Source: an uncultured Acidobacteriota bacterium
GTDB lineage: Bacteria > Acidobacteriota > UBA6911
Assembly (NCBI GenBank): GCA_963827655.1
Contig: CAWHCF010000052.1
Location: 119,979-183,978, forward strand
Direction of reading: 5' to 3'
Length of the DNA: 64,000 bases
Position numbers and translations under genes: made by a program. Below the pieces are notes generated by a model that saw only the letters and a list, made by a program, of their open reading frames with translations, did not search any database and was not told the DNA's origin. Below, piece by piece: positions 5,141-61,568 of the stretch. The stretch's first letter is position 1. Each line of letters starts with the position of its first letter.

Positions 5141-5180
5141 CCCCTTGGACGGCAGGAGTCACGTTCCCGCGCTTCTCTCA

Positions 5181-5421: not shown

Positions 5422-5521
5422 TTTATGTGACATAATTTTGTCGACCGGTCAGGCGGATTTGGATGAGAAATTACCAGGGATCTTACATCCAATTGAGTAG
5501 TCGCTCCGGGCGGAGAGTTAT

Positions 5522-7613: not shown

Positions 7614-7690
7614 GGACATCGAGTCTCTTGACGCCCTGGTTGTCGGCGCGGATTGACTCGCCCGCAGTGAAGACCTAGAATCCCCAAGCC

Positions 7691-9514: not shown

Positions 9515-9600
9515 CTCCATTCTGATCGCGTCTCCGGGGTGGGCGGGCAAAGACAATCAACCGTCTGGACACGAAGACGCACCCGACGCAGTGGTTGTCC

Positions 9601-9629
9601 TTGACGCGGCTTCAGGCCACGGGTAAGAT
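9601..9629 (+). promoter_or_regulatory. Sigma70-type promoter of the yicC-gmk-rpoZ-coaBC operon
   Basis: TTGACG-N17-TAAGAT. Confidence 0.6.
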
Positions 9630-9664
9630 TATTGGATTTCGGTATTGTGAGGCTTCGGCGATAG

Positions 9665-10552: not shown

Positions 10553-10553
10553 T

Positions 10554-11189: not shown

Positions 11190-11376
11190 GACTGTAGGAT
11201 CAAAATACCGCTTCATCATAATTGCCGCAGAGAGGGCCAAGCAGCTACAGAATAACGCGAAGCCGAAGATCAAAACCAGGTCAACCAAACCGGCGCACGT
11301 TGCGATGCAGGAAGTGGAGCAGGGACTCATCGGTTTCGAAATTTCACATCCGGAGCAGCCTAAAGGGGAATCGTGA
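11173..11376 (+). CDS. rpoZ: RNA polymerase omega subunit
   Basis: SKYRFIIIAAERAKQL; position between gmk and coaBC. Confidence 0.93.
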   Translation: MQKIPETVGSKYRFIIIAAERAKQLQNNAKPKIKTRSTKPAHVAMQEVEQGLIGFEISHPEQPKGES

Positions 11377-36268: not shown

Positions 36269-37384
36269 GTGGTGAAAATATTCTTGAGGCAGAAGAAGCT
36301 TCTGGACGGAAGGAAGTCGATCTACCTGGATATGTACCGCCAGGGGCATCGCCGGTATGAATTCCTGAACCTGTACCTTACGGGCAATCGTGACGCCGAC
36401 AAGGAAACCATGCGGCTGGCCGAAGCCATTGTGGCCAAGCGAAAGCTCGCTTCCGTGAGCGCCGACCATGACCTGCCAGCGCCATCACGACTTCAGGAAG
36501 ATTTCGTGGCCTACTGCCGGCGGCTGGCAGAGGATCAGCAAGCCTACAATACACGGCTCGTCTGGAACAACGCCATTGCCCGACTCGTTTCCTATGCCGG
36601 CCCGGTGATAAGCTTTGGCCAATTGAGCGAAGATTTCATCAAGGGATTCCGAGAAAATCTGCTCAAAGATCTGAAGCGGAATTCGGCCGCCGTCTACTTC
36701 GCAAAAATCAAAACTGCGATCCTGCGCGCTACCCGCAAGCACATCCTGCCAAGAAACCCGGCGGATGGAATCACGATCCGCACCGAAGAAACCAGCCGAG
36801 TGTATCTCACGCTGGCCGACCTGCGATGCCTTCAAAAAACCGATTGCGAAAACCAGGCCGTCAAAGACGCCTTCCTGTTTTCGGCATTTTCGGGGATGCG
36901 GTATTCGGATGTAAAGCGTCTCACCTGGGGAAAAATAGAATCCGAAGACAATCGCTGGCGGATCGGATTCGTTCAACAGAAAACGGGGAGTCTGGAATGG
37001 CTTCCGCTGTCGGCGGAAGCAGTTTCCATCCTTCGGCATCAGAAGGATGCCCGGCCTTCCGGCCGGACCGAGAATCCTATCCCGGCCGACGCCGTCTTCA
37101 AGCTCCCGGCGCAACAGACCATTGACAAGGCGATCAAGCGGTGGGCCGTGAGGGCCGGTCTCGAAAGGCGAATTTCCTTTCATACCGCCCGGCACACATT
37201 CGGCACACTCGGCCTGAAGCACGGAATTGACATTTACACCATGTCCAAGCTTTTGGGGCACCGCAGCCTGGAAACAACCCAGATCTACGCAAAGGTGGTA
37301 GACGAGTCGAAGAGGAAGGCAGTTGCCCTGTTCCCGACGCTCCATCCGTCGGATTCGAAGCGGAAAAGCAGGAAGGGGAAATAA
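36269..37384 (+). CDS. Tyrosine integrase (Bacteroidota mobilizable-element type)
   Basis: 'SIYLDMY..G.RRYEFLNLYL' arm domain; catalytic R (SGMRYSD), K (QQKT), HTARH, LGH, Y (QIYAK). Confidence 0.93.
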   Translation: MVKIFLRQKKLLDGRKSIYLDMYRQGHRRYEFLNLYLTGNRDADKETMRLAEAIVAKRKLASVSADHDLPAPSRLQEDFVAYCRRLAEDQQAYNTRLVWNNAIARLVSYAGPVISFGQLSEDFIKGFRENLLKDLKRNSAAVYFAKIKTAILRATRKHILPRNPADGITIRTEETSRVYLTLADLRCLQKTDCENQAVKDAFLFSAFSGMRYSDVKRLTWGKIESEDNRWRIGFVQQKTGSLEWLPLSAEAVSILRHQKDARPSGRTENPIPADAVFKLPAQQTIDKAIKRWAVRAGLERRISFHTARHTFGTLGLKHGIDIYTMSKLLGHRSLETTQIYAKVVDESKRKAVALFPTLHPSDSKRKSRKGK

Positions 37385-38262
37385 TGAGTCCTAGAGAGAA
37401 TAGGGATTTTTACCGGGAGAACGTCGAGACCCTCAGAAGCGCTTTTCAAGAAATCCTGCACCATCATTTTCTCCTGTTGTCGGCCTTTATTCCGAAAATC
37501 GTCGAAACCATCAAGGCAGCGTTATCCGAATCTCTTTCCGAGGCGTCGGAAGAACGGGGAAAGACAACGCCTGCAATCAACGCCCTTTTGATTCCGGACG
37601 CCGAGAATGCGATTTTTTACGAGACGCCCCGGGCGACGGTAATTTCCTCGATTGACGTGGCCAAGGCCATTGAATTCGATTTCCGATACCTGGAGCAGGG
37701 CGATGTTGCCGCGCTCAAAGACGTCCTGGACCATCAACAGGAAGCACTTGAGCACCTTATGGTGATGATTCCGCCGCAACTCGGCATTGGCAGGGAAATT
37801 CTTGATCCATTTCAGATACGAATGAATGCCCTGGTGCAAAATAGCAGGGGGGAGAAGCGCTTCCAGGTTGAATATCTGAAAGCCAAGGAAGATCTCATGC
37901 CCACGAATTTGCGTTTGTGGGTTCATAAGGCGAATGTTGCGCTAGATTATTTGCAGGACAACCCGGCGCCCGTAGCCGTGGTTGATTTGCCGGTTCCAGT
38001 ATCCCGACCGGAAACAAGACGGCCGGTTTGGAGCTCGACCGATAATAGTTTTGCAGAATTGATCGTGGAACTTCATAAAAAGGGCTATATCGACGGACAA
38101 AGCCCGATGGATGTCCTGGCAGCGGTCGCCCCGCTGTTTGAAAACGTCAATCCTGACGGACGTACCTTGTGGCAGGGAATTGCCAATCGCGCTCATAAGG
38201 GGAATCGATTTGCCTCTATTCCAGCGGCTCCAAAGCCGAGAAAAAAGGCAAGGTCACGGTAG
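37384..38262 (+). CDS. Hypothetical protein with an RteC-like C-terminal domain
   Basis: 'VWSSTDNSFAELIVELHKKGYI' resembles the RteC W..s...l.ELi..L...G.I pattern; sits between int and xis. Confidence 0.5.
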   Translation: MSPRENRDFYRENVETLRSAFQEILHHHFLLLSAFIPKIVETIKAALSESLSEASEERGKTTPAINALLIPDAENAIFYETPRATVISSIDVAKAIEFDFRYLEQGDVAALKDVLDHQQEALEHLMVMIPPQLGIGREILDPFQIRMNALVQNSRGEKRFQVEYLKAKEDLMPTNLRLWVHKANVALDYLQDNPAPVAVVDLPVPVSRPETRRPVWSSTDNSFAELIVELHKKGYIDGQSPMDVLAAVAPLFENVNPDGRTLWQGIANRAHKGNRFASIPAAPKPRKKARSR

Positions 38263-38268
38263 AATCAG

Positions 38269-38286
38269 TGACTCAACGTTGAGTCA
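38269..38286. promoter_or_regulatory. Perfect 18-bp palindrome upstream of xis (candidate operator)
   Basis: TGACTCAACGTTGAGTCA. Confidence 0.6.
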
Positions 38287-38351
38287 ATTTTGATGGCTAC
38301 GGTTCTTTGAAATAATTGCGCTCGGTTAGTTGTTGTTAAGGGGAGCGCAAA

Positions 38352-38639
38352 ATGACAAAGAGCGATTTGGTTGATCTGGACGGCAGGCTCGACAGAATCG
38401 AACGGCTCGTCCTGCGCATGGGCACCCAGGAGTCTGGACCGCTCGACCTGGATGCAGCCGCGAAATATCTCGGCATCTCCAAATCTCACCTTTATCACCT
38501 AACAAGCAAAGGCCTGATCGGTCATTTCAAGCCCGCCGGGAAGAAAATTTACTTCGACAAGGCGGACCTGGATTCGTATCTCAAGCGCAAGCGAGTGATG
38601 CCGCCCTGGGAAATCGACCGTGCTGCGGCAATGAAATAG
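38352..38639 (+). CDS. Excisionase-like HTH_17 protein
   Basis: LDAAAKYLGISKSHLYHLTS...HFKPAGKKIYFDKADL. Confidence 0.9.
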   Translation: MTKSDLVDLDGRLDRIERLVLRMGTQESGPLDLDAAAKYLGISKSHLYHLTSKGLIGHFKPAGKKIYFDKADLDSYLKRKRVMPPWEIDRAAAMK

Positions 38640-38912
38640 GAGCCGCTTGCCGGCGGAAAGAGCCCGTTCGGGCGAACCCAGGCAGGCTTCGATATAGCAC
38701 GCGGTGCGATTCCGACAGATACCGGAAGAATTCGTAATCACCGCCATCGCGGCTATCGCAACGGTCGGCAACCACTCCGGTTAATTGCAGCCTGCCCGAC
38801 GGCCGATGCCTCCACAAGGGGGGGCATGACTCAGGTTTCAATCCACTCCCGTCCATTTGGAGCGGTAGGGAATGCACGGATCATCCGTCCTATTTTTAGA
38901 GGAGTCCGGAAT

Positions 38913-39680
38913 ATGAACAGATTGCACACGTCTGACACCCAATCTCCAAATCACGCTTCTTCGACCCGCAAGAGAACCATTTTCTCCATGGGCGGTAAGG
39001 GCGGTGTCGGCAAGACCTCCGTCATGACCGGTCTGGCCGAATGGCTCCACATGAACCAGATCCCCGTCACTCTCCTGGATCTCGACACCGAGAACAAGGC
39101 GCGCGGATCGCTGACCCACTTCTTCGGGGGCCAGGTACCCAAGGTAAACATCCACACCCCGGCAGGCTTGGATGCGTTTATCGATCATCTCGCCGACGGC
39201 GCTCCCGTGGTCCTTGCCGACATGGGAGCGGGCTCCGGCCAGGTCACCTACGACTGGTTCGATACCATGTACACCGATCTTGCAGACGCGGGAATCGCCT
39301 TCACTACGGTCGGAATCGTGACCGCCGATCCCGCCAGCGTCGAAAGTGTCCTCTCCTGGGCCGGGCATCTGCAAAGCCGGGTTGCTTACCTTATCGTCGA
39401 AAACAGCATCACCGCCTATTGCGATTTCACTTACTGGCGGGCCACCGCCCAGGCACAGCAGTTCCGCGAGGCCTTTGCGCCCGCCGTCATTCATATCGAT
39501 TACCGTCTCGCCGAGCTGGAAAACGCCGCGCGCAATCACGGCGTTACCCTGGGCAGCGTCGCGGCAAGACGAGCCGACGTGGAGGAACTGCGTAAGGCCT
39601 CCATTGTCATGCGGGCCCAAAGCTACCGGCGACGGATGTTTGCCGAGTTCGACAGGGTGAAGGAGTTGCTGCTGCCATGA
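38913..39680 (+). CDS. ParA/MinD-type ATPase, TraL-like mobilization accessory
   Basis: GKGGVGKT deviant Walker A, LDLDTEN, ADMGAG; upstream of the relaxase. Confidence 0.75.
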   Translation: MNRLHTSDTQSPNHASSTRKRTIFSMGGKGGVGKTSVMTGLAEWLHMNQIPVTLLDLDTENKARGSLTHFFGGQVPKVNIHTPAGLDAFIDHLADGAPVVLADMGAGSGQVTYDWFDTMYTDLADAGIAFTTVGIVTADPASVESVLSWAGHLQSRVAYLIVENSITAYCDFTYWRATAQAQQFREAFAPAVIHIDYRLAELENAARNHGVTLGSVAARRADVEELRKASIVMRAQSYRRRMFAEFDRVKELLLP

Positions 39681-40387
39681 CTTCAAAACCGAAAGAGACC
39701 GAAATCCCTGCGCAAAAGATGATTGACTTTCTCGCCGAGGGACAGTCCGCTGAAGTTAAAGCTGCCTTGTATCGCGAGATGACATACTGCCACTCACTTC
39801 CCCAAAATGACGAAATGCTGCGCATCATCAGCATCCTGGGGATCCTGACGGCTCTGATAAAGCAGATCCCCACCAACATTGCCGTCGAGCGCGAAGGATT
39901 CAAACGGCTTTTCGCGGAAGCCACCTGCCTATTGAATGAGACCCTTTCGGCCAGCACAAGATATCTGAAAGATCTCAATGCCCGATTAACCAAACTCCCT
40001 GAGGAAATCGGCAGCGGAATCAATGCCCGGACAATCGCCGATTCCATCAACGAGAATCTGCGGCAGCAGTTTGCCCTGTCAACCATTCCTCAGACCGCCC
40101 AGGCTCTTGCCTCGGCCGCCGAAGAAATGAAAGGCACGGCCAAGGAATTCTCGACCACGGCAGAAAACCTTGGAGACTCCTATCGTGGCTGTGTGGCTAA
40201 AGCCCAGCAAGCCATCGGCGATATCAACAAGAGCGTATCTCATGCAGCCGACACGGCAAATCGCGCTATCGATGAATTCACCAGTCATTTTCACAATGCC
40301 TATTGGCGCTCGCTGTACGGCCTGACGGGCCTCGCCTTCCTGCTTGGCTTTTCGTTGGCCTTGATTGTCGTTCACTGGTTCTCTTGA
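39677..40387 (+). CDS. Helical protein with C-terminal TM helix (possible TraM/MobB-like)
   Basis: Ala-rich helical body plus hydrophobic C-terminus; coupled to the TraL-like gene. Confidence 0.6.
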   Translation: MTSKPKETEIPAQKMIDFLAEGQSAEVKAALYREMTYCHSLPQNDEMLRIISILGILTALIKQIPTNIAVEREGFKRLFAEATCLLNETLSASTRYLKDLNARLTKLPEEIGSGINARTIADSINENLRQQFALSTIPQTAQALASAAEEMKGTAKEFSTTAENLGDSYRGCVAKAQQAIGDINKSVSHAADTANRAIDEFTSHFHNAYWRSLYGLTGLAFLLGFSLALIVVHWFS

Positions 40388-40440
40388 CTCCCGTACTTGA
40401 ACCAGTGTCCGAAGATCTAACGCCTTGAGGTAACTATCTG

Positions 40441-43254
40441 ATGCTGACCATCCGCGCTATGTCCGACGGAAAGGGATATTCCTGCAGGCATCTCGAGCAT
40501 AGCGACTATTATGCCGAAGGCGAGCGGGTGCGGGGTTTCTGGCACGGACGTGGAGCGAAGCTCCTCGGTCTAGATGGCGAAACGAGATCCGACGACTTCG
40601 AATCTCTGCGCCAGGGGCTCGAGCCCGGCACGGGAAAGTTCCTGCGCCAGAGAAAGAGCGCCGATCGGATTGCCTCCGACGGAACGACTCTGTCGCAAGG
40701 AAGGAATCTCTACGACTTTACCATCTCCGCACCCAAATCGGTTTCGGTCATGGCCATTCTCGGCGGCGATGCGCGCCTCCTCGAGGCTCATGAAAGAGCG
40801 GTACATGCAGCACTCGAGGAACTCGAGTCGCATGCTGCCGCCCGAGTGCGCCGGTCGGGCGCAAACACGAACCGGACGACCGGCAATCTAGTCCTTGCCG
40901 TCTATCACCACGACACCAGCCGTGAGCTCGATCCTCAGCTCCACACCCATGCCGTGGCCGCCAACCTCACCTACGACGGCACGGAAGGCCGCTGGAAGGC
41001 TCTCCAGGCCTCCGAAATCTACGAGCGCAGGTCCTACCTCACCGAAGTCTACCGCAACGCCCTGGCGCGCGAGGTGCGTTCGCTCGGATACGATATCGAG
41101 AATCGACTCGACCGCAGGGGGCGAGATTGCGGTTTCGAGATTCGTGGCATCTCCGAGGACGTCCTAACCAAATTCAGCCGCCGGAGCCGGCAACGGGACG
41201 AAGCGATTCGCCGCTTCACGGCAAGAAACGGGCGGCCGCCGACCGACAACGAAGTAGCCGTTCTCGTCCGGGAGTCCCGCGCCGACAAGCTGATTGAAAT
41301 CTCGACAGCCGATTTGCGCGTGCGCCAGCGCGAGCGGCTGGATCCTAACGAAGCTCGCCTGCTCGCCGACTTGAAGCCTGAAACACCCTGCAACACAATC
41401 AACCGTGCGCCCGCCGAAGTTTCGCTCGAGTATGCGAAAGATCATGTCTTCGAACGGGTCTCGGTCGCGCGCGGTCACGAGATTCTCGCTGAGGCCCTCC
41501 GCCACGGCAGAGGACAGATCAGCCACGAGGAACTGACAGGCGCACTCTCCCTCCAGAAACTCTCGGGCAAGATCCTGCACCACGGCGAGGATCTTGCGAC
41601 CATCGAAAGCCTCGCGCGCGAGCGGGAAATGATCCGCGCCATCAATCGAGGTATTGGCGGATGCGAACCGTTGGGGAAATCCGCCCGATTCGTGCCTTCC
41701 GATCGTCTGAACCCGGAACAGAAGCAGACGGTGGACTTCGTGCTCAGCTCGCGCGATAGAGCCGTGAACATCAGCGGAGCGGCCGGTACCGGTAAAACCG
41801 CCACCCTTCAGGGACTTCGGCAGGGATTGATCTCAGCCGGCCGGGGAATCGTAGCCGTTGCGCCGACCATGAGCGCCGTCGAAGAACTGCAGAGAGTCGG
41901 CATGAAAGATTCCATGACGATCGAGAGATTGCTGCAGGATCCACAATCCCAGGCCGACCTGGCCGGCAAGGTCCTGATTGTCGACGAGGCAGGAATGGTC
42001 TCAGGAAGACAGATGTCGCAACTCCTTCAGCTTGCCGCACGGGATTCGATCCGTCTTATATTCAGCGGGGATACGAAACAGATCCAAAGCGTCGAATCCT
42101 GCGACGCACTGAGGATCCTCGAGAAGGAATCCCGACTGAAGACAGTATCCCTGACTCATGTGCAAAGACAAATGGCGCCGGATTATCGCAAGGCGATTCA
42201 GGAACTGCGTCGGGATCCCGCAGCCGGGATTGAAAAGCTCGATGCCATGGGAGCAGTGCGGGAGGTTCCCTGGCTGGACCGCCCTCAGGCGGTGGCTCGA
42301 GCCTTTGCCGAACTCCAATCCCGGGGACGAAAACCGCTCGTCGTATGCGCCACCCATGAGGAGATCGATCGCGTCACGGAGGCAATCCGCCTGGAGAGAA
42401 AGACTGCGGGCCGGCTTCGTAAAGGCCGTGAGCTCTTACGCGATGTTTCGCTGAACTGGACCGCCGCCCAGAAGAGCGATATCCGCAACCTCCGCCCGGG
42501 ACAGTTCCTGGGATTTCACCGCGCTGTCAAAGGCATCGCAAAGTACGAAACCCTCGAGGTTCTCCGGGTCGAAGGAACGAATGTGATAGTTCGGAATGAC
42601 CACGGAGCGCAGCGGCAAGTCACCGGTAAGCAGTGCAAGTCTTTTGACGTGTTTGAAAGGCGGTCGATCGAAGTCGCCCCCGGCGACAGGCTCCAGATTA
42701 CCGCCAATCGCCGGCGTCCTGGCTTTCGTGTCACAAACGGCGAAATCGTCACCGTCAAAACGGTCGATCGTAACGGGCGAATTCATTTTCAGGACGGCCG
42801 TAGCACTCCGGGCAATTTCCGACAGTTCTCGTATGGTTACGCCGTAACCGCCCATCGCAGCCAGGGCAAGTCCGTCGACTCGGTCATCATCTCGGCCGAC
42901 GGCATGAAGAGGGAGCTGTTTTATGTCGCCGCATCCCGCGGCAAGAAGAGCGCGGTCATTATCACGAGCGACAAGCAGCTGCTCCGTGACGCGGTCGGCC
43001 GTTCAACCGCGAGACAATCCGCAACGGAGCTTGCACAGAAGTTAAGGCCGGAATTGCATCAGGAAATCCTCCGGGGCCTGGATGCCGCCCGAAGACTCGC
43101 AACCTGGGCCGCCCGGCACCTGTCTCCTGTTTTCCGGATCTCAAAACCGGCGCCCCATCTGGACCTGGGACAAAAGCCCCATGCGGCGCCATCCCATGAG
43201 ACGAAACGCCAAATCATTAGGGAGCAAAGCCATGACCACGACCTCAGCCTATGA
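40441..43254 (+). CDS. MOBF relaxase-helicase (TrwC/TraI family)
   Basis: DYY, YDFTISAPKSVS, HDTSRELDPQLHTH, GAAGTGKT, DEAG, TAHRSQG. Confidence 0.95.
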   Translation: MLTIRAMSDGKGYSCRHLEHSDYYAEGERVRGFWHGRGAKLLGLDGETRSDDFESLRQGLEPGTGKFLRQRKSADRIASDGTTLSQGRNLYDFTISAPKSVSVMAILGGDARLLEAHERAVHAALEELESHAAARVRRSGANTNRTTGNLVLAVYHHDTSRELDPQLHTHAVAANLTYDGTEGRWKALQASEIYERRSYLTEVYRNALAREVRSLGYDIENRLDRRGRDCGFEIRGISEDVLTKFSRRSRQRDEAIRRFTARNGRPPTDNEVAVLVRESRADKLIEISTADLRVRQRERLDPNEARLLADLKPETPCNTINRAPAEVSLEYAKDHVFERVSVARGHEILAEALRHGRGQISHEELTGALSLQKLSGKILHHGEDLATIESLAREREMIRAINRGIGGCEPLGKSARFVPSDRLNPEQKQTVDFVLSSRDRAVNISGAAGTGKTATLQGLRQGLISAGRGIVAVAPTMSAVEELQRVGMKDSMTIERLLQDPQSQADLAGKVLIVDEAGMVSGRQMSQLLQLAARDSIRLIFSGDTKQIQSVESCDALRILEKESRLKTVSLTHVQRQMAPDYRKAIQELRRDPAAGIEKLDAMGAVREVPWLDRPQAVARAFAELQSRGRKPLVVCATHEEIDRVTEAIRLERKTAGRLRKGRELLRDVSLNWTAAQKSDIRNLRPGQFLGFHRAVKGIAKYETLEVLRVEGTNVIVRNDHGAQRQVTGKQCKSFDVFERRSIEVAPGDRLQITANRRRPGFRVTNGEIVTVKTVDRNGRIHFQDGRSTPGNFRQFSYGYAVTAHRSQGKSVDSVIISADGMKRELFYVAASRGKKSAVIITSDKQLLRDAVGRSTARQSATELAQKLRPELHQEILRGLDAARRLATWAARHLSPVFRISKPAPHLDLGQKPHAAPSHETKRQIIREQSHDHDLSL

Positions 43255-44485: not shown

Positions 44486-44839
44486 ATGAAAAAGCCATCG
44501 CAGAAGATCATTCCAGCGGCATTCTACTGCACAGAAACGGGAACCGAGCCTGTACGCGAGTGGCTCAAAGGACTGAGTGTCGAAGACCGCCGCATCATCG
44601 GCACTGATATCAGAACGGTAGAATTCGGCTGGCCCGTAGGCATGCCGGTCTGCCGGCCCATGGGCCATGGTCTATTCGAAGTCCGCGTCACGCTCACCGG
44701 GAAAAGAATTGCCCGGATACTGTTCTGCATTCACGAAGGGACCATGGTGCTTCTTCACGGATTTGTGAAGAAGACCAGTAAAACGCCGGACGGCGATTTG
44801 GCTCTCGCCCTGAAACGCAAAGCGGAGGTTGAGAGATGA
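44486..44839 (+). CDS. RelE/ParE (Gp49-like) type II toxin
   Basis: GTEPVREWL, GWPVGMP, LFEVR, LLHGFVKKT. Confidence 0.9.
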   Translation: MKKPSQKIIPAAFYCTETGTEPVREWLKGLSVEDRRIIGTDIRTVEFGWPVGMPVCRPMGHGLFEVRVTLTGKRIARILFCIHEGTMVLLHGFVKKTSKTPDGDLALALKRKAEVER

Positions 44840-45138
44840 AGCGAAAGCATGTTGGATCCTTCTTTGACGACTACCTCAAGGAAGAAGGGATTTACGAGGA
44901 GGCGACCAGCCATGCCATGAAACGTCTCATCGCGTGGCAGCTTGCCGAGGCGATGAAGGCGAGGAAGATTTCCAAAGCGGAAATGGCCCGCCGCCTTAGA
45001 ACCAGCCGGACTCAAGTTGCACGCTGTCTCGATCCCGAAAACAGCAGGGTCCAGCTCGACACCATTCAGAAAGCTGCTGCCATCCTCGGCAAGCGCCTGG
45101 TCCTCAGACTTGAAGATCTCCCCCGTTCAGTAGCCTGA
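44836..45138 (+). CDS. XRE HTH antitoxin (HigA-like)
   Basis: HVGSFFDDYL, SKAEMARRLRTSRTQV; overlaps the toxin stop. Confidence 0.88.
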   Translation: MKRKHVGSFFDDYLKEEGIYEEATSHAMKRLIAWQLAEAMKARKISKAEMARRLRTSRTQVARCLDPENSRVQLDTIQKAAAILGKRLVLRLEDLPRSVA

Positions 45139-45229: not shown

Positions 45230-46192
45230 TTATGAATAACCCTTCGCGACCAGCACGAAGGCGTCGAGCAAGAGACCGGAGGGCGAGTACTTGACCACGG
45301 AAGTGTTGAACCCCGCCTCGGGACCGCTCCAGCCCCACGCGAGCATCAAGAGATCGCCGTTGGCGTCGAAGCGCAGCGCGTCGCCTTCGTCATGTCCGTA
45401 GTAGTAGGTCTCCTCGTCGTAGCGCTGGGCCCAGAGGAAGTTGCCCTGCAGGTCGTAGAGCACGGTAGCAGCCGACGTTTCGATGATCTCACCGCCCGCG
45501 TCGTACTTGGCGACGAAAAGGTCGCGCGAGACGCCGGTGATGTCGCCGCCGGCGTAGATGTCGCCCGCTGCATCCACGGCGATTCCCCAGCAGGCATCGG
45601 TGGAATTGCCCGAGCCGTTGATGCGATCCAGCCAGACGAGCGCGCCGCTCGGCGAGTACTTGATAACGACCCAGTCGTACCCCGTGCCGGCACCCGTCGA
45701 GTACCCGCCGCCGACGACGTTGCCGGCGGGATCGACGCCGAGCGAGCGGCCCCCGAACACGCCGTCCTCGTCGTTCCCCGGGCCGTTGTGGCGCCGCACC
45801 CATTGCAGGGTCCCGGCCGGATCGTATTTCAGCGTGACGAGGTCATTGCCGGTGCCGATGCCGACCGAATCGCCCGCGACGATGGCGTTGCCCGCTGCGT
45901 CGACCTCGACGACCCAGCCGTAGTCAGGACCGCCGCCGCCGCCGGAGTAGGTGCGCGTCCAGAGCTTGGTGCCGTTCGGGTTGAACTTCGTGAGGAAGAT
46001 GACACCCACGCCCGCGGCATTCGTCGAGGATCCCGTCATGTAGACGTTCCCGGCGCCGTCGATCGCCGAGGCGATGCCGTAGTCATCGAGGTTGAGGACG
46101 TTGTGGTACTTGATCCAGATCGGATTGAGCTGGGCTTCCGCCAGGCCCGCGACAGCGAGCGAAGCGGCGCAGAGGGAAAAAAAGCGCTTCAT
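45230..46192 (-). pseudogene. Secreted beta-propeller (SBBP-like repeat) protein, C-terminally truncated
   Basis: Signal peptide MKRFFSLCAASLAVAGLAEA; repeats 'AVDAAGN.Y..G.S...D...KYD..G...W'; ends abruptly at the GC shift near 45240. Confidence 0.75.
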
Positions 46193-46389: not shown

Positions 46390-47574
46390 TCAGAGGGTGA
46401 TCCGGAACAGCGGCTGGATGTTCGCTTCCGGCGCGAGGTCCTGGTAGGCGAGCACGGGCACGCCGGGAAGCACATCGCGCACGAGCTGCCAGAGCGCGTA
46501 GCGGCTCGCGGCACCGACGAGCAGCGGGACCTCGCGCCTCGGACTCGCAAGGGGAGGGGAGGGAAGCTCCGCTTCGATCTCTACCAGCAAGCGGTCGATC
46601 TCGCCCTCGCTGAGCGTGCGGTCCCTGACTCCCCGCTCGAGCGAAGGCTCGATGAGCCCCACGGCGATGGTCCATTCGGGCGCATAGAGCCGCAAGCCCC
46701 ACGACTCGCGGAAGCGGAAGTCGAGCTTTTGAGAGCTGTAGCGGTTGGCATGGAACGATTTGAAGCCCTCGCGGACGCACTGGGCCAGGGCGTGCGCCGG
46801 CAGGTCTTCCAGGCTCTCGGTCGACCACGCGACGCCGAGCGCGGGCGGTGCGAACACAATGAAGGCATCGAGCTCCGGAGGGCACACGCAGTTCGTCGCG
46901 AGCAGCGACTCGCAGATCACGCGCGGGTGCGTGAGCGGCACACCCTCGTCCACAAGGCAGCGGACGACCGCGGTCAACCGCGAGAGGTCGAACCGGTCGC
47001 GCACCGCTGCGGCGACGCGCGGTCGATGACGTTCCACGCGAGCGAGGAGCGCAAGCACCTCGGCCTCGCCGACGAGCCGTGCCGCGGCGCGACGCAGCAC
47101 GCCATGAGCCGAATGGCTCCCGCGACGGTCTTCCTGCGGCTCGTCCAGCACCGGGCTCAGGAGCCCGGAGATCTGGAGCCGCGGGCCGGGCTCGAGCCCC
47201 TCCGGCACGGGCCTCGCAGCGGCCGGCCGCACGGCGATCCCGAGCGACCGTTCCAGCTCGGCGAGCTGCGCTGGATCGAGGCCGCCGAGGCACGCGACCG
47301 ATGCGCCCACGGCCGAGGCCGGCTGACGCTCCAAGAGGGACCAGAACATCGTCCAGGCGATCGCGCGCGCGAGGTCCGCGCCGCCGGCGGGCCATGGGGC
47401 GCTCGGGAGCCGCACCCGCAGGCCGTCGATTTCGACCCGACGGTCGCCGCCGGCGACGAGCAGCTGTGCCTTCGGTTCCAGGGACGCCAGAACCGCGTCC
47501 GCCTCTCGGCGCACAAGGTCGAGGACCTCCGGCGTGGCCGCCGGCACGAGCACGCGAACCTCGGCGGGCGTCAC
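46390..47574 (-). CDS. Soluble FHIPEP (FlhA/SctV cytoplasmic domain-like) protein
   Basis: 'LVGEAEVLALLARVERHRPRV...VVRCLVDEGVPL...ICESLL' and C-terminal 'SRYALWQLV...PVLAYQDLAPEANIQPLFRI'; no TM segments. Confidence 0.8.
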   Translation of the reverse strand: MTPAEVRVLVPAATPEVLDLVRREADAVLASLEPKAQLLVAGGDRRVEIDGLRVRLPSAPWPAGGADLARAIAWTMFWSLLERQPASAVGASVACLGGLDPAQLAELERSLGIAVRPAAARPVPEGLEPGPRLQISGLLSPVLDEPQEDRRGSHSAHGVLRRAAARLVGEAEVLALLARVERHRPRVAAAVRDRFDLSRLTAVVRCLVDEGVPLTHPRVICESLLATNCVCPPELDAFIVFAPPALGVAWSTESLEDLPAHALAQCVREGFKSFHANRYSSQKLDFRFRESWGLRLYAPEWTIAVGLIEPSLERGVRDRTLSEGEIDRLLVEIEAELPSPPLASPRREVPLLVGAASRYALWQLVRDVLPGVPVLAYQDLAPEANIQPLFRITL

Positions 47575-50500
47575 GCGTCTCCTCCGTCGACTTCGTCGAG
47601 AGTGACGATCACGCGCTCTCGCATCCAGTCGTCGAGCTCGCGCCAGGCGACCACCGGCAAGTGCGGAAACTCGAGCTCGACCAGGGCCCGCATGTGGGGG
47701 CGAATGTCCGGGTTCTCAACGAGCACCGCGACCCACCCCGAGTCCTCGAGGCTCTGCACCGCGGTGCGTACGGCGGCGAGGAACTCCTGAGTGACTTCCG
47801 GCTCGATCGCCAGCACCGCTTGACCGTTCAGCGTGCGCAGCCGCTTGGCAAGCATCGCCTCGGTGACCGGCGTGAGGCGTAGGTACCGCGTTCTCCAGGA
47901 CAATCCGGGGAGCCCATACCGCACTGCATCATGGCAGCGGACGCGTTCGGCGATGGCGGCGACGGACTCGCTGCGGCTCATGCCGTCGCGCAGACCCTCC
48001 ACGATGGCCGGCATCGAGCGCACCGGCACTCGTTCCTGGAGCAGCGCCCGTACCACCGAGGTGAGCGGCGTCAGCCACTGCGACGCGACCGTGGCGGCCT
48101 CTTCCTCCGGCAGGTGGATTCCGAGGAGGTCCGCGACGTCCTGGTGCGACAGGAAGCCGCCGAGGCGTGCCTCGAGGATGGCCTGGACGTGCAACCTGAG
48201 CGCGAAGGGCGCCTCGCTCGCGAAGATATGGGCTGCCCTGAGCGCGTCCGCGTGCTCCTTCTGGATCCAGGCGGCCGGGCGCCCGTTCAGCGGGTTGTTC
48301 GTCGCTTCGAACGGGATGCCGGCCTGGGCGAGCTGCTCGCGCTGCCCGTGCACGAACAGCGCGTCGAGCGGCAGCTGCATCCCCGCGATCGCGACCTGAT
48401 CCACGCGGACGAGGTAGGTGCGTTCGGGCAAGGGAGAGGGGCGCAGCGCGATCGGCGGCAGCGCGACGCCGTAGGTCTCCCAGAGGTGCCAGCGCAGCCG
48501 CCGCAGCTCCTGCGCGAGCGCGCCGCCGTCCGGCGACGCGAGCCCCTGGTCCAACTCGGGTGCAAGCTCCACCGTGAGCTCGGCGACGTCCGCGATCGTC
48601 CGGCTGCGGAGCTCGTTCTCCACCCAGCGCCGGTTGGCGAGGCTCCGCGCGCGCTGGGCGAAAGCGAATGCGTGCGGCAGCGCGGCTTGCTCGAACGGGC
48701 GCGGGGTACCGGCGCGAAGTGCTCGCGGCTCGCCTCGAACTCGCCGTCCTCGCACAGGAGCTCGGCGAGCTCGAGGTGGACGACGGCTGCCTCGTCCGCG
48801 CCCACCGTGCCGTTCGCCGCGAGCAGCGCGAGCGCATCGCCGAGGGCCGTGCGAGCGAGGCTGTTCTGCTCGCGCGAGCGCTGCTGCCGCGCAAGCCGGA
48901 CCAAGAGCCCGGCGGCGAGCACCGGCTCCGCGGCGGCTCCGGGCGCGCCGTCCACGGCCGGCCGCACGTGCGAGTACAGCTCGTCGCGCTCTGCGGCCTC
49001 GAGCCCCGACTCGTAGGGGAAGCCGGCCTCGAGCAAGCGCAGAGCGGCGATCGACCAGCTCCGCTGCGCGGCGCCGTCCATCCTGGCCCGCGTGACCGCC
49101 TGCACCAGCCGGTGCAGCGAGAGAGCCTCGCTCTCGACGCGCACCAGCGAGTAGCGGCGCAGCTCGGCGAGGGCATCATCGAAGGCGAGCTCGTCCTCGA
49201 TCGCTGCGCGCAGCGTGGCGGGCAAGGCGGCGGCCAGCTTTCCGAACAGCGCACGCGAGATCCGGTCGGGAGCGAGCCAGGCGAGGAGGCTCAGGAGCTC
49301 GGCGGCGACGACGTGACTTGCCTCGAGCGCTTGGAAGGAGAGCTCCCAGGTGCTCGCGACGGTGGCCGGGTAGTCGAGCACCTCGCCGCGGCTCAGTACC
49401 TCCACGCGCTTGCGCGCGAGTAGAGCGAGGTACTGGGCCAAGGACTTGCCCCCGCGCTCGGCATAGGCGCAGGCCTGCTCGAGCGCGAGCGGCAGCCTGT
49501 CGAGCAGGCGTGCGATCTCGCGCGCGCTGCCCGCATCGTCGCCGCCGTGGCGGGCGAGCAAGAAGGCAGTTGCGTCCTTGAGGGAGAGCGGCGAGAGCTC
49601 GCTCGCGACGGCGACGCCGGCCCAGCTCGGGTCGCGCGAGGTGACGATCACGTGCCCGCTCGCCAAGCGCGGCCGGTACTCCGTGAGCGCCGCGGCGCTT
49701 TGGGCGTTGTCGAAGATGAGCAGCCAGCGCCCGTTGCGGTCGAGCCAGTCGCGCACGGCGCGCACGCGGTCGCCTCGCTCGGGAGCCCGGGCCGCATCGA
49801 GGCCGAGGGCCGCTGCGAGGCCGGCGTAGTCGGCGGCGAGCGTCTCCGAATCCTCCGCGCGCAACCAGCAGACGACGTCATAGTCCGCTCTGTGCCGGTA
49901 GGCGAACTCGAGGGCGGTCTGCGTCTTGCCGATACCCCCAAGACCCGTGAGAGCCGCCGTGCGCGTCGTGGCGGCGGGATGGTTGAGGCGCGCATGCATC
50001 TCTGCTAGCAGGTCGTCGCGTCCCGTGAAGTGCGGGTTCTGCGCATAGGGCAGGCTGAAGATGCGCCGCGGCTCTTCCGGGCTGACGCCGGAGAACGAGA
50101 GCTTGTACTCGACCAAGGCGCTCTTGAGCTGCGCCCGGAACGTCGCAAGGTCCGCCTGTTCGTGTTCGAAGAATCCTGCTGGCTGACCGAGGGCCGCCCG
50201 GAAGGTGTCGATCCACTCCCGGCCTTTCTCGGTGGTCTCCCAGAGCTTGCCCGGCCAGGTGTCACGCGCCAGGAAGGCGAGCACGGGAATGCTCTTCTCG
50301 CGGGCATGGGCGAGCTCCAAGGCGGTGATCGACTGCTGGCCGTCGCCGCCTTCGTCCGCTCGCGGCACCCAGCCGCGGCGGAAGGCGACAAGCAGCACGA
50401 CGAGGTCGCACTCGGCCAGGCTCTCGCGACACATGGTCACGGTTGGGCGCGTGTCGGCGCCGCCGTGCTCGTTCAAGAGCTCCGGATGCCAGTGCAGATC

Positions 50501-50590
50501 GAGCACCACGTCGCGCGCCGCCTGGCGCCAGGCCTTCAGGTCTTCAGCCGTGGAGGAGATGAAGACGCGGAGCATCTGCGGCGAAGGCAT
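47571..50590 (-). CDS. DUF4062 + NB-ARC (STAND) + short TPR + FHIPEP fusion protein, frameshift at ~48700
   Basis: RVFISST.EDL...SITALE (DUF4062); FTGR, GLGGIGKT, LLIFDNA, IVTSR, LPLAL, LHRLVQ (NB-ARC); FlhA-like 'YGVALPPI', 'PLNGRPAAWI', 'LLQERVPVR', 'IRPHMRALV...LPVVAWREL'. Confidence 0.82.
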
Positions 50591-50651
50591 CGGGAACCGC
50601 GGTGTTCTAATGCGCCGCCGCGCCATCTCGCAAGTTGAGTCGCCGGGCAGC

Positions 50652-51496
50652 GGATAGTGGAACAAAGGCCCGATTTCGAGAATGGGTGCCCCACCCAACG
50701 GTTCTCCACTGTTTCTGATAACGGGTTTTACGTCATCTTCGCGTGTTCGGGCCGGCAATTTTCCGCAACGCCGGGTATTGTATCACCGTTTTTTCCGGAC
50801 TCGTTTCCGAGGGATCCTCTGTGCAGGCACACCGGGATCGTGCGGCTCAATCCGGCGTTGTCGTCCTCAATTCAGGAGATCACGGCCTCAGGGGAAATAG
50901 GCGGGGCACGGGTAGGAAAACCGAGGCACTCCAGGATTCCGCGAATGGCCTCGGGCGAATGGATGGCGGCCATGATCCTCATGCGCCCACGACAGCGATG
51001 GCACTCGAGAACGTCCACTTCCCACACGCGTTTCATGAGCTCAGCCCACGTATAGTTGCGTGGATGGCAACGACCGGGCAGGGACTTCTCGTCATGAGAG
51101 GATTGTTTGCCGGCGCTGCATCCGTCATGAGCAACGGGATCCACGGCGTCAAGTGCTGCTGCTGCCAGCGGAACGATCGACGACCGCCAACCGGCTGCCG
51201 GGGCCAGGATTCCGTGGTATCTGACCTGGTTGAACCTGGGCGGAGGAACCAAAGCAGCGAGCTTGGCAACGAACTCCAGCCGTTCGAAGACGACATGCGT
51301 GGTGCCGTCGCGCCAACGATGCTTGAGATGATACAGCGGCCGGCCATCCGGTAAAGCGGACAGACGCTCGGTGGCTACCGCCGGCCGGGCCACATAACGG
51401 CAGAGTTTTCCCAACTGGCGCCGGGCCCTGGCGGGGATGCAGACGTTTGCGTGCAGGCTGAAACCCGAAAAGGATGCGCACCTTGGAGCTGACCGC
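50652..51496 (-). mobile_element. Partial IS91-family element (oriIS end plus 3' part of the transposase)
   Basis: Near-identical to 55038..55883; minus-strand end TTTGTTCCA-CTATCC. Confidence 0.92.
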
Positions 51497-60442: not shown

Positions 60443-61568
60443 ATGACAATCGGTACTACTCGTAAATCAAACTGCCGGGAAGAAAATGGTAGAGCACGGA
60501 TCAAAGGTGTGTGGCTGTCTTGCTTGATTGCGAGCGTGACCGTCCTGGGCCTGGCAGCCAACGGGACGGTTGCCCCGGCGCGCGACCGACTTTCCGACCA
60601 TGAATCCCTTGCAGCCGGCTCTCAGAGGCTCTACCGACGTCTTCGTCGCAACGGTGACGCCTGACGGCCCTCAGCTCCTCTACTCCACCTACCTCGGTGG
60701 CAATGGCAATGAATTCGGCAGCAGCATCGCCGTTGATACCCGCGGCAACGCCTTCGTAACGGGTGAGACCGATTCGACCGACTTTCCAACCGCGAATCCC
60801 TTGCAGCCGGTGATCAAGGGACCCAGCGACGCGTTCGTGGCAAAGGTGAAGTCTGACGGATCTGAGCTCCTGTACGCCACCTACCTCGGCGGTACTGGCT
60901 TTGAAGCGGGCGCCGGCAACGCTTACGTGACGGGTGATACTAATTCGACCGACTTCTCGACCGTGAATTCTCTGCAGCCGGCTCTCAGAGGTTCCTTCGC
61001 AGGCTTTGTGGCTAAGATTGGGAAGGCGCGGTATGACAAGGTCCTGGCTGCCAACACCCTTGGTACTTGTTCATCTCTCGTGTCTCCTGGGGCCATCTGG
61101 AAATATCTGGACAACGGCTCGAACCAGGGAACAGCGTGGCGTGAACCGAATTTTATTGCTGATTGGTCGCAAGGTCCTGCGGAATTGGGCTACGGCGATG
61201 GGGATGAAGCGACCGTGGTGAGCTACGGACCGAACCCGAATAACAAATACATTACAATCTACTTCCGGCACTCCTTTAACGTTACCAACCCCGCCTTTGC
61301 GGATTTAACCCTTCGGGTTCTCCGGGACGACGGCGCTGTGGTTTATCTAAATGGCAACGAGGTCTTCAGATCAAACCTGCCCGCTGGGACAATTTCATAT
61401 ACCACCCCGGCCTCCGCGGCGGTGGAGGATCCGCCATCGACCTACCATGAGGCCCATGTCAATCCCAGTCTTTTAGTGAACGGCACCAATGTCATCGCCG
61501 TCGAGATTCATCAGGTCGATGGTCTAACCTTGAGCTCATCGAATGCGATACCGTTCGATTCGCCGTGA
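60443..61568 (+). pseudogene. Mosaic secreted-protein remnant: signal peptide, SBBP repeats and a beta-sandwich module
   Basis: 'LLYSTYLGG...IAVDTRGNAFVTG.T.STDFPT' repeats joined to 'WKYLDNGSNQGTAWR...GPAELGYGDGDE'; signal peptide in a different frame. Confidence 0.7.

What the first reader, a model, noticed from the sequence alone, without database searches (positions are those of the whole stretch)
46390..50590. NLR-like STAND NTPase fused to a soluble FlhA/SctV ring domain, with a second FHIPEP partner: candidate undescribed immunity/conflict system
Seen: two translationally coupled minus-strand genes (ATGA overlap at 47571-47574). Gene 1 is DUF4062, then NB-ARC with intact Walker A/B, LPLAL and LHRLVQ motifs, then only about two TPR-like helices, then (across one frameshift) a full-length FlhA/SctV cytoplasmic domain. 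Gene 2 is a divergent stand-alone FlhA/SctV cytoplasmic domain. Neither has the TM export-gate domain, and no flagellar or T3SS genes are in the window. The cassette is visibly more GC-rich than the host core and sits among mobile elements and TA pairs. Known: FlhA/SctV cytoplasmic domains form nonameric rings that dock chaperone-substrate complexes, bacterial STAND NTPases with N-terminal effectors act as phage sensors, and DUF4062 is regarded as TIR/nucleoside-deoxyribosyltransferase-like. Inference: the ring domain has been co-opted as the sensor/integrated decoy, or as a hetero-oligomeric scaffold that clusters the DUF4062 effector (inflammasome-like). I do not know of a characterised system with this architecture.
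Basis: partly seen in the sequence, partly recalled or inferred. Interest (0 to 1): 0.92.

Follow-up and report, generated by a model that had tools for sequence, protein, structure and literature searches.

The report
NADase NLR with secretion-gate sensor pair
A horizontally acquired two-gene cassette encodes an NLR-like cell-suicide enzyme whose usual sensor is replaced by a pair of soluble copies of the type III secretion gate's ring domain, a pairing that recurs widely in bacteria and appears undescribed.

Summary
On the minus strand, gene 1 (50575-47571) reads DUF4062/NIR, then a P-loop NB-ARC-type NTPase, DUF7779, a short helical arm and a full FlhA/SctV cytoplasmic domain (FHIPEP E 6.5e-43). 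A 1-nt deletion at 48712/48713 breaks it. Gene 2 (47574-46390) overlaps it by GTGA, not ATGA, and is a TM-less SctV-C fold. Intact fused orthologues of 911-1013 aa exist, each with the partner gene, and a 99%-identical soil contig carries the missing base. The assembly has no other FHIPEP, FliP or flagellin. The cassette (GC 0.71 against 0.58) lies in an integrase/relaxase island.

The new result is that the two domains belong to two old lineages, here called A and B. Of 148 database relatives, 35 carry A then B in one polypeptide, and 108 of the other 113 end in A. Only 3 are real export gates. A second Acidobacteriota genome couples CHAT protease, TPR-A and B. The A-B complex model scores 0.85 against 0.00 for controls.

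Best reading: an Avs-like abortive-infection NADase with a two-part SctV-derived sensor. DUF4062 NADase effectors were described in 2026; I found no paper describing the A/B module. Function is untested, and this copy may be a pseudogene.

The parts
48713..50575 (-). Gene 1, first reading frame: NIR(DUF4062)-NTPase-DUF7779-helical arm, 621 codons from the ATG at 50575 to the frame break
   Evidence: ORF and translation. It is 69% identical over 655 aa to the intact gene in L003.
50303..50569 (-). DUF4062 / NIR NADase-like effector domain. The putative catalytic Glu is E87 in SITALELAHA.
   Evidence: Pfam PF13271 E 1.5e-14, full profile 1-82. E87 aligns with an invariant Glu in 8 of 8 NIR-STAND-FHIPEP proteins. 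Its catalytic role is inferred from the preprints.
49562..49960 (-). P-loop STAND NTPase core (NB-ARC type): Walker A GLGGIGKTQ, Walker B-like LLIFDNA
   Evidence: AAA_22 at 26.7 bits and NB-ARC at 19.8 bits, both just under their cut-offs. PF00931 is precomputed on homologues P0001, P0003 and P0004. The motifs are read.
49073..49324 (-). DUF7779 (winged-helix/arm region after the NOD), followed at 48713-49072 by about 120 aa of helical hairpins
   Evidence: Pfam PF25000 E 4.6e-14. Helices 505-626 in the low-confidence P0001 model.
48712..48713 (-). Frame break: one base is missing relative to intact homologues (frame changes by -1)
   Evidence: Three-frame reading against P0001. A 186-nt soil-metagenome contig with 2 mismatches has one extra base exactly here, which keeps the frame.
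47571..48712 (-). Gene 1, second reading frame: A-type soluble FlhA/SctV cytoplasmic domain, ending at the TGA at 47571-47573
   Evidence: Pfam FHIPEP E 6.5e-43, profile 322-654 of 657. Best PDB sequence match is YscV 7qij at E 9.8e-22. It falls in the A-type clade.
47571..47574 (-). GTGA stop/start overlap of gene 1 and gene 2, with GGAGG at 47585-47581
   Evidence: Sequence read. The equivalent overlap is present in L003.
46390..47574 (-). Gene 2: stand-alone B-type SctV-C-like protein, 394 aa, ending VLAYQDLAPEANIQPLFRITL
   Evidence: FHIPEP at 36.6 bits. AF2 model has pLDDT 76.7. Foldseek's top hits are YscV, CdsV, FlhA, EscV, SsaV and MxiA at probability 1.00. It falls in the B-type clade with 99 SH-like support.
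46822..46893 (-). B-type hallmark insertion (residues about 228-251, ...CPPELDAFIVFAPPALGVAW...)
   Evidence: It holds 8 invariant columns of alignment A1. It is disordered in the monomer model and forms the core of the predicted interface with the A domain. It is present in 35 of 35 tandem B domains and absent from 3 of 3 canonical gates, judged by eye.
36269..43254 (+). Context: tyrosine integrase (36269-37384), ParA-like gene (38826-39680), TrwC relaxase/helicase (40441-43254). This is the backbone of an integrative mobilisable or conjugative element.
   Evidence: Pfam.
44486..45138 (+). Context: Gp49/HigB-like toxin plus HTH antitoxin pair
   Evidence: Pfam.
50872..51414 (-). Context: IS91-family (Y2_Tnp) transposase fragment next to the cassette. 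A full copy lies at 55259-56809.
   Evidence: Pfam.

Best explanation
This is a two-gene NLR-like (Avs-like) abortive-infection system that arrived by horizontal transfer.

Gene 1 has the usual STAND order of effector, switch and sensor. The effector is a NIR/DUF4062 NADase and the switch is an NB-ARC-type NTPase with DUF7779. In the sensor position sits a soluble SctV/FlhA cytoplasmic domain (A-type), in place of a long TPR or WD40 array.

Gene 2 is translationally coupled to gene 1 and encodes a second, anciently diverged copy of the same fold (B-type). It binds the A domain through a B-specific inserted strand, which gives an A-B pseudo-dimer.

Proposed mechanism (inferred): the A-B platform keeps the NTPase closed. 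It descends from a domain that docks chaperone-substrate complexes. Binding of an invader protein to the platform, or disturbance of it, opens the NOD. The NOD then oligomerises, the NIR domains cluster, and NAD+ is hydrolysed, so the infected cell stops growing.

Shown here: the domains, the conserved fusion, the conserved partner, A/B fusions elsewhere, the foreign origin, and the absence of a T3SS.
Modelled only: the A-B contact.
Inferred: the trigger, oligomerisation, NADase activity and any phenotype.

This genome's copy has a 1-nt frame break in gene 1, so here it is either a recent pseudogene or an assembly error.
For: - Domain order.
- Intact fused homologues: P0001, P0002 and P0004 carry PF13271, PF25000 and PF00771, and PF00931 is recorded on P0001 and P0004 but not on P0002. 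P0003 has a different N-terminus.
- The partner is encoded next to the fusion in the window and in L003.
- Rosetta-stone evidence: 35 of 148 relatives have A then B in one chain, in the same order as the two genes.
- The G002 locus couples CHAT protease, TPR-A and B with overlapping stops and starts, which is an effector swap around the same pair.
- Complex model: ipSAE 0.85 in 3 of 3 runs, best of 3 controls 0.00, runs agree in at least 80% of contacts, partner pLDDT 86. The tool's calibration was 58 of 80 solved complexes and 2 of 110 mismatched pairs reaching the mark. The interface uses the invariant B insertion.
- DUF4062 is an NADase effector of Avs2, Vulcan, Vesta and Swarozyc, with a catalytic Glu (passages of two 2026 preprints). 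E87 is conserved in 8 of 8.
- Patchy distribution: full-length gene 2 relatives were found in 2 of 401 sampled genomes of the phylum.
- GC is foreign in the window but native in L003.
- The cassette is cargo of an integrase/relaxase island with a toxin-antitoxin pair.
Against: - There is no functional data of any kind.
- PADLOC gave 0 hits for all three window ORFs and for P0001.
- The L003 neighbours (TonB-type receptor, two-component pair, PGA_cap, SGL) are not defence genes. Only the window copy sits in a mobile island.
- Solved SctV-C rings exist, so the complex score may reflect remembered ring contacts rather than this pair (the tool's own caveat).
- Most A/B relatives carry only TPR repeats and no recognised effector (13 of 15 scanned have TPR, 3 of 15 have NIR plus NB-ARC). 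The module as such need not be immune.
- The Walker B second acidic residue is Asn (DN) throughout the family, so hydrolysis may be weak.
- NB-ARC is under the Pfam cut-off in this copy.
- Gene 1 is frame-broken here, and 8 other ORFs in the window showed no sign of indel errors. That favours a real mutation.
- No RNA data were available.
Confidence: 0.5

Rival explanations
1. Guard or antitoxin-like logic. B does not help to sense a ligand. It caps the A domain and blocks its self-association into an SctV-like ring. When B is lost or titrated, by host shut-off, degradation or a phage protein that binds it, the A domains ring up. That clusters the NIR domains and fires the NADase.
For: - Tight 1:1 translational coupling (GTGA overlap).
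- The predicted large SD3-centred interface lies in the region that mediates subunit contacts in solved SctV-C nonamers (the location of ring contacts is recalled, not tested).
- The cassette is carried next to a toxin-antitoxin pair on a mobile island.
Against: - In 35 of 148 relatives A and B are covalently fused. B cannot simply leave there, so release cannot be the general mechanism.
- Nothing shows that B is unstable.
Confidence: 0.17
2. In this genome the cassette is a dead remnant. The 1-nt deletion is real, gene 1 ends out of frame, and nothing functional is made. Only the orthologues elsewhere are of interest.
For: - The break is in the assembly.
- The site has no slippery heptamer (read).
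- Eight other ORFs checked in the window have full-length domain matches, so indel errors are not frequent.
- NADase systems are costly and are often lost after transfer (general knowledge).
Against: - There is only one lesion in 4.2 kb. All three pieces align to L003 without further stops.
- GC3 is still 0.86-0.90.
- A 99%-identical environmental contig has the base (one contig at depth 3.1).
- The run with 100%-identical pieces does not cover the site, so the source reads were not seen.
Confidence: 0.45
3. The A/B module is a general cytoplasmic scaffold or signalling device of TPR proteins. It could, for example, be a docking platform for chaperone-bound clients, as in FlhA, with no role in immunity. 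The NIR-STAND fusions would then be regulated-dormancy or kin-conflict switches, not phage sensors.
For: - Most relatives are TPR-A or TPR-A-B proteins with no recognised toxic domain.
- The L003 context is ordinary.
- The G343 genome also has a normal flagellar FlhA.
Against: - The pair is found with two different death-type effectors, NIR NADase and CHAT protease.
- One preprint reports that NIR proteins are strongly enriched near defence genes (passage read).
- The distribution is very patchy and the cassette is mobile.
Confidence: 0.15
4. Integrated decoy. The A/B domains mimic the T3SS or flagellar export gate to catch molecules that normally target the gate, such as invader-encoded gate binders or flagellar and T3SS chaperone-substrate complexes.
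For: - Full four-subdomain SctV-C fold.
- B keeps the canonical C-terminal YQ(D/E)L...NIQP motif and is nearer to canonical gates in the tree.
Against: - The host assembly has no FHIPEP gate, FliP or flagellin to be mimicked (90% complete).
- The A/B split is old and widespread. That fits an independent module better than a recently captured decoy.
Confidence: 0.08

Closest known systems
Avs2 with a NIR (DUF4062) effector (PsAvs2), and other NIR-bearing NLR-like proteins (bioRxiv 10.64898/2026.09.04.749371; passages read)
   Same: N-terminal DUF4062/NIR domain with a conserved Glu, a central STAND NTPase, a C-terminal recognition region, and carriage on mobile DNA.
   Different: - The sensor is not a TPR-like repeat array. 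It is an SctV/FlhA cytoplasmic domain plus a separately encoded paralogue.
- The NOD is NB-ARC/DUF7779 type.
- No PADLOC Avs model matches.
- Neither preprint mentions FlhA or FHIPEP in its main text. Their supplements could not be read.
SctV/FlhA export-gate cytoplasmic ring (YscV 7qij and 7alw, CdsV 6wa6, FlhA 3a5i and 6ch1)
   Same: Homologous four-subdomain fold over the whole domain. B keeps the C-terminal YQEL...NIQP motif.
   Different: - There is no transmembrane gate domain and no T3SS or flagellar gene context.
- There are two diverged lineages, A and B, that pair with each other.
- B has an extra inserted strand of about 25 aa.
- Ring formation was not tested.
Prokaryotic defence STANDs surveyed in Nature 2026 (PMC13581612: 589 clades, 684 sensor clusters; abstract and section 5 read)
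   Same: Tripartite effector-NTPase-sensor plan. Sensors are swapped among clades, and sensors recognise protein folds.
   Different: The sensor types named in the text are TPR-like, WD40 and FGE-sulfatase. FlhA, FHIPEP, SctV and DUF4062 have 0 occurrences in the main text.
TPR-CHAT and other CHAT-protease conflict systems
   Same: The G002 locus puts a CHAT protease directly upstream of TPR-A and B, which is a caspase-like effector with a TPR partner.
   Different: The A/B pair is not part of any described CHAT system I could find. This concerns the sister locus, not the window.
NAIP/NLRC4 (animal NLRs that sense flagellin and T3SS parts; mentioned in PMC13581612)
   Same: An NLR-type switch connected with type III secretion proteins.
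   Different: The logic is reversed. In the animal case the T3SS protein is the ligand. Here a T3SS-derived domain is part of the receptor. There is no homology of the sensors.

Membership tests
STAND NTPase, NB-ARC/AP-ATPase type (NLR-like) | P-loop with Walker A and Walker B | tested here: met
   GLGGIGKTQ and LLIFDNA are read and are invariant in alignment A2. The second Walker B acidic residue is Asn.
STAND NTPase, NB-ARC/AP-ATPase type (NLR-like) | Pfam NB-ARC match above the gathering score | tested here: inconclusive
   The window copy scores 19.8 bits against a cut-off of 23.5, and AAA_22 scores 26.7 against 27. PF00931 is recorded on homologues P0001, P0003 and P0004.
STAND NTPase, NB-ARC/AP-ATPase type (NLR-like) | Effector - NOD - winged helix/arm - C-terminal sensor order | tested here: met
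   DUF4062, then P-loop, then DUF7779, then helices, then FHIPEP-C.
Avs (antiviral STAND) defence proteins | Match to a curated defence model | tested here: not met
   PADLOC-DB v2 gave 0 families for the three window ORFs and for P0001. The library dates from 2023.
Avs (antiviral STAND) defence proteins | Protection against phage; activation by a phage protein | not testable with these tools
   This needs expression of an intact pair and a phage challenge.
NIR / DUF4062 NADase | Pfam PF13271 above its cut-off | tested here: met
   54.4 bits against 24.7, covering the full profile.
NIR / DUF4062 NADase | Catalytic glutamate | tested here: inconclusive
   E87 is invariant in 8 of 8 aligned NIR-STAND-FHIPEP proteins. 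Its equivalence to E97-E108 of the studied enzymes is inferred from position and was not aligned to them.
NIR / DUF4062 NADase | NAD+ hydrolysis | not testable with these tools
   This needs a biochemical assay.
FHIPEP export-gate proteins (FlhA/SctV) | N-terminal polytopic membrane domain | tested here: not met
   The Pfam match starts at profile position 322. The hydropathy scan found 0 TM segments in the middle ORF, against 7 in each of the 3 canonical relatives.
FHIPEP export-gate proteins (FlhA/SctV) | Cytoplasmic four-subdomain C-terminal fold | tested here: met
   Sequence matches to YscV, CdsV, InvA, MxiA and FlhA. Foldseek probability 1.00 for the gene 2 model.
FHIPEP export-gate proteins (FlhA/SctV) | Encoded with other T3SS or flagellar export genes | tested here: not met
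   There are none in the window or in L003. No FliP or flagellin was found in the 90%-complete assembly.
FHIPEP export-gate proteins (FlhA/SctV) | Homo-nonameric ring | not tested
   Nine copies exceed the size limit of the complex tool. Only the A-B pair was modelled.
Soluble A/B SctV-C-like pair (class defined in this report) | A-type domain at the C-terminus, directly followed by a B-type domain (fused or next gene) that carries the inserted strand | tested here: met
   Window and L003; G002; 35 of 148 fused; the insertion; clade placement.

The most novel reading that the evidence does not exclude
The soluble A/B pair of SctV/FlhA-like cytoplasmic domains is a widespread and so far unrecognised recognition-and-assembly module of prokaryotic conflict systems. 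It is plugged into NIR-NADase STAND switches, CHAT proteases and long TPR proteins. Its B lineage is the closest relative of the cytoplasmic ring of the type III secretion and flagellar export gate. On this reading, the substrate-docking ring of T3SS and an immune sensor share a common origin, and the docking principle (binding chaperone-bound or partly unfolded clients) is reused to detect invaders.
Probability: 0.3. Interest if true: 0.9.

Novelty: new variant of a known kind. Interest (0 to 1): 0.78.

Why it matters
STAND/NLR-like defence proteins are known to swap sensors, but the sensors described so far are repeat arrays or propellers. Here the sensor position is held by a hetero-pair derived from the type III secretion gate's docking ring.

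Three things follow.
- It adds a structurally distinct, two-component sensor type to bacterial NLR-like immunity. The effector (NIR NADase) was shown in 2026 to be a real effector, so the system can be tested directly.
- It exposes a large family that automatic annotation mislabels as "FHIPEP family type III secretion protein" or "EscV". Genome surveys may therefore overcount T3SS or flagellar gates.
- It bears on the origin of the FlhA/SctV cytoplasmic domain, because soluble B-type domains group with the canonical gates (quick tree, unrooted).

Tried and rejected
- Metagenome scan with alignment A2: the patterns came from the NB-ARC part. All 80 loci kept are NB-ARC relatives, and 0 of 80 contain an FHIPEP match to either window protein. 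No new fused loci came from it.
- Viral contig scan: 1 NB-ARC relative (L084) with no FHIPEP match to either window protein.
- Full-length AF2 model of P0001: pLDDT 61 and pTM 0.35. It is too poor to read domain packing.
- Protein atlas: it returned only FHIPEP clusters, which adds nothing.
- Sequencing runs: no listed holder is on record as RNA. All holders have small shares (at most 0.12). The run with 100%-identical pieces does not cover 48565-48715.
- Programmed frameshift: rejected, because there is no slippery heptamer at the site.
- Rampant assembly indels as the cause of the break: not supported. The four ORF pairs suspected of being split genes are separate, full-length genes.
- Last homology search with the G002 partner: 8 hits, 5 of them TM-less (including the query itself) and 3 canonical. 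The word pre-filter limits its reach.
- First tree run with the mixture model did not finish. The FastTree run on a subsample was used instead. Row L092 there is an artefact of how I cut the ORF.
- Literature: 7 searches and term searches inside 5 papers found no description of FHIPEP/FlhA-C domains in STAND, TPR or CHAT proteins. Supplementary tables are closed and may hold one.

Full report
**What is in the sequence**

Three minus-strand ORFs cover 46390-50758. Pfam finds the following on the first ORF:
- DUF4062: 54.4 bits, cut-off 24.7
- a P-loop region: AAA_22 at 26.7 bits and NB-ARC at 19.8 bits, both just under their cut-offs
- DUF7779: 52.9 bits

On the second ORF, FHIPEP scores E 6.5e-43 over profile positions 322-654 of 657. 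That is only the cytoplasmic half of FlhA/SctV. On the third ORF the FHIPEP match is weaker: 36.6 bits, cut-off 29.1.

The motifs GLGGIGKTQ, LLIFDNA, LPLAL and LHRLVQ are readable.

Gene 1 starts at the ATG at 50575. Gene 2 starts with a GTG that overlaps the gene 1 stop as GTGA (47574-47571), and a GGAGG lies 8 nt upstream.

**The frameshift**

The first frame stays open to 48287 only because the DNA is 72% G+C. Comparison with intact homologue P0001 (...HFAAGT...) places a single missing base between 48713 and 48712. There is no slippery heptamer at the site.

I laid public contigs on the region. One soil-metagenome contig of 186 nt, with 2 mismatches and depth 3.1, carries one extra base exactly there, which keeps the frame. 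The run that holds 100%-identical pieces does not cover the site.

The four ORF pairs in the window that I suspected of being split genes turned out to be separate, complete genes, so indel errors are not common in this assembly. I cannot decide between a recent inactivating mutation and a local consensus error, and I put the odds near even. No other lesion is present. The three pieces align to the orthologous locus L003 at 69%, 62% and 52% protein identity without stops.

**The fusion and the partner are conserved**

A search for longer relatives of the FHIPEP ORF returned four intact fused clusters:
- P0001 (1006 aa), P0002 (998 aa) and P0004 (1013 aa), which carry PF13271, PF25000 and PF00771. 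PF00931 is recorded on P0001 and P0004.
- P0003 (911 aa), which has PF00931, PF25000 and PF00771 behind a coiled-coil N-terminus in place of DUF4062.

In a Vicinamibacterales MAG contig (L003) the intact gene runs 8001-11021 and is followed by a gene 2 orthologue at 11021-12199, with overlapping stop and start.

The gene 2 family is small: 7 clusters including the window's own. NCBI labels one fused orthologue "FHIPEP family type III secretion protein".

**Not a secretion gate**

- The middle ORF shows no TM segment in my hydropathy scan, and Pfam matches neither FHIPEP ORF to the membrane half of the profile.
- The 8.18 Mb assembly (90% complete) has FHIPEP only at these two places, and has no FliP and no flagellin.
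- The neighbours in L003 are a TonB-type receptor, a two-component pair, PGA_cap and SGL.
- By sequence, both proteins are closest to injectisome SctV structures (YscV 7qij, CdsV 6wa6), ahead of FlhA.
- The AF2 model of gene 2 (pLDDT 76.7, pTM 0.78) matches YscV, CdsV, FlhA, EscV, SsaV and MxiA over about 375 columns at probability 1.00.

**Foreign origin**

Cassette GC is 0.713 against 0.578 for the rest of the window. In L003 the cassette (0.733) matches its flanks (0.70-0.72).

The window carries a tyrosine integrase, a ParA-like gene, a TrwC relaxase, a Gp49/HigB-HTH pair and IS91 copies around the cassette.

In a sample of 401 genomes of the phylum, full-length gene 2 relatives occur only in the window's genome and in G343, which is the L003 MAG. 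None of the six same-family genomes has one. L003 is titled Vicinamibacterales, and the tool lists G343 as the same phylum but a different class.

**A much larger family with two lineages**

An exhaustive HMMER search with the A-domain ORF found 1862 representatives at E<=1e-3, and 33 at E<=1e-30. Among the 148 best non-self hits, only 3 have the seven or more TM segments of true gates.

Pfam on 15 of them gave TPR repeats in 13, and DUF4062 plus NB-ARC in 3 (P0076, P0125 and P0132, which have a different NB-ARC lineage and long TPR arrays).

I built one HMM from the fused C-terminal domain (A) and one from the gene 2 family (B) and scanned the 148:
- 35 carry A directly followed by B in one polypeptide (median 1401 aa).
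- 108 of the remaining 113 end within 40 residues of the A domain.

All 35 tandem B domains, the gene 2 family and the G002 partner share an insertion of about 25 residues after the last SD3 helix (…[FY]IVF…). The 3 canonical gates lack it (judged by eye).

A quick FastTree was run on a subsample: 73 rows, 14 of 31 tandem pairs, SH-like supports, midpoint root used only for drawing. It splits all A-type domains from a group that holds all B-type domains (99) and the canonical FlhA/SctV domains (96). The A and B subtrees look congruent. One row (L092) is a long-branch artefact of my own cutting.

**A second system built on the same pair**

A PF00771 scan of the same 401 genomes found 118 with FHIPEP. 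Nearly all are full-length flagellar FlhA. TM-less matches that are not gate fragments (pieces at contig ends, or a gate split by a frame break) were seen in three genomes only: G000, G343 and G002. In all three they form a tandem pair.

In G002 the order is CHAT protease, then a TPR-A protein of 927 aa that overlaps it by 8 nt, then a B protein of 542 aa joined by an ATGA overlap. The CHAT part matches PADLOC's SAVED_CHAT model at the domain level. Stand-alone TM-less B-type proteins also occur outside the phylum; P0187, for example, is labelled Povalibacter.

**Do A and B touch?**

The complex tool gave ipSAE 0.85 in three of three runs, with 0.00 for the best of three controls. The runs agree in at least 80% of contacts and the partner's pLDDT is 86. 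In the tool's calibration, 58 of 80 solved complexes and 2 of 110 mismatched pairs reached the mark. My own alignments were used, so those counts hold only roughly.

The interface centres on B residues 183-248. That stretch includes the insertion, which is disordered in the monomer model and holds eight invariant columns. On the A side it involves the SD3 helices and the conserved VLAIEPE strand.

Nonameric SctV-C rings have been solved, so the pass may partly reflect remembered ring contacts. The independent support is the 35 natural A-B fusions.

**What is known**

Two 2026 preprints show that DUF4062 (renamed NIR) is a TIR-like NADase with a catalytic Glu. [quoted passage not shown] Neither mentions FlhA or FHIPEP.

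The Nature 2026 survey of defence STANDs (abstract and section 5 read) names TPR-like, WD40 and FGE-sulfatase sensors. FlhA, FHIPEP, SctV and DUF4062 have no occurrence in its main text. Two eLife surveys of conflict systems have none either.

Seven literature searches found no description. Supplementary tables were closed and might list such a sensor cluster.

**Reading**

The effector and the switch are of a known kind. The C-terminal A domain with its obligate B partner is the new element.

I favour a sensor platform that releases the NOD on ligand binding, with confidence 0.5. The reasons are that it sits in the sensor position, that it descends from a client-docking domain, and that it is combined with two different death-type effectors.

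The rivals are:
- a guard-type role for B
- a non-immune scaffold role for the wider family
- a decoy for gate-binding molecules
- separately from the above, the possibility that this particular copy is dead

E87 is the likely catalytic Glu of the NIR domain and is conserved in 8 of 8 related proteins. The Walker B motif reads DN throughout the family.

Noticed in passing
L102 (G002:C1:2508000-2524000) 5045-10996: CHAT protease, TPR plus A-type FHIPEP-C, and a B-type partner are encoded as three overlapping or coupled genes in another genome of the phylum. The same A/B pair is joined to a caspase-like effector.
   Followed up: partly
proteins P0021, P0022, P0025, P0028, P0034 and others: A family of about 1400 aa with an unknown N-terminus, a TPR array, and A and B domains fused in tandem. 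It accounts for most of the 35 tandem proteins. No enzymatic domain was recognised.
   Followed up: partly
proteins P0024, P0031, P0046, P0060 and others (22 representatives): Proteins of 1441-2097 aa, most with one or two predicted N-terminal TM segments, then TPRs and an A or A-B module at the C-terminus. JGI names one of them "EscV/predicted Zn-dependent protease".
   Followed up: no
P0003: This fused orthologue has a short coiled-coil N-terminus in place of DUF4062 and still has the B partner. It may recruit a separate effector.
   Followed up: no
window 36269-43254: Tyrosine integrase, ParA-like gene and TrwC relaxase/helicase: the backbone of an integrative mobilisable or conjugative element upstream of the cassette. 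Its ends and att sites were not sought.
   Followed up: partly
window 50872-51414 and 55259-56809: An IS91-family transposase fragment and a full copy bracket a Ser/Thr kinase-PD40 gene (51832-54699). GC is raised (0.61-0.66) across 51-57 kb.
   Followed up: no
window 45230-46120 and 60570-61568: Two beta-propeller proteins (DUF5122 and SBBP repeats). The first has a hydrophobic N-terminus that looks like a signal peptide, lies directly downstream of gene 2, and shares the raised GC.
   Followed up: no
G000 whole assembly against the same-family genomes: Four of six genomes of the same family have a canonical full-length FlhA. The window's genome (90% complete) shows no FlhA, FliP or flagellin, so the flagellum may have been lost in this lineage.
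   Followed up: partly
L004-L083: The NB-ARC/DUF7779 module of gene 1 has at least 550 relatives in metagenome contigs. None of the 80 loci kept has an FHIPEP match, so the NOD lineage usually carries other C-terminal regions.
   Followed up: partly
L084 8001-9059 (IMG/VR contig): A 32%-identical NB-ARC relative lies on a contig classed as viral.
   Followed up: no
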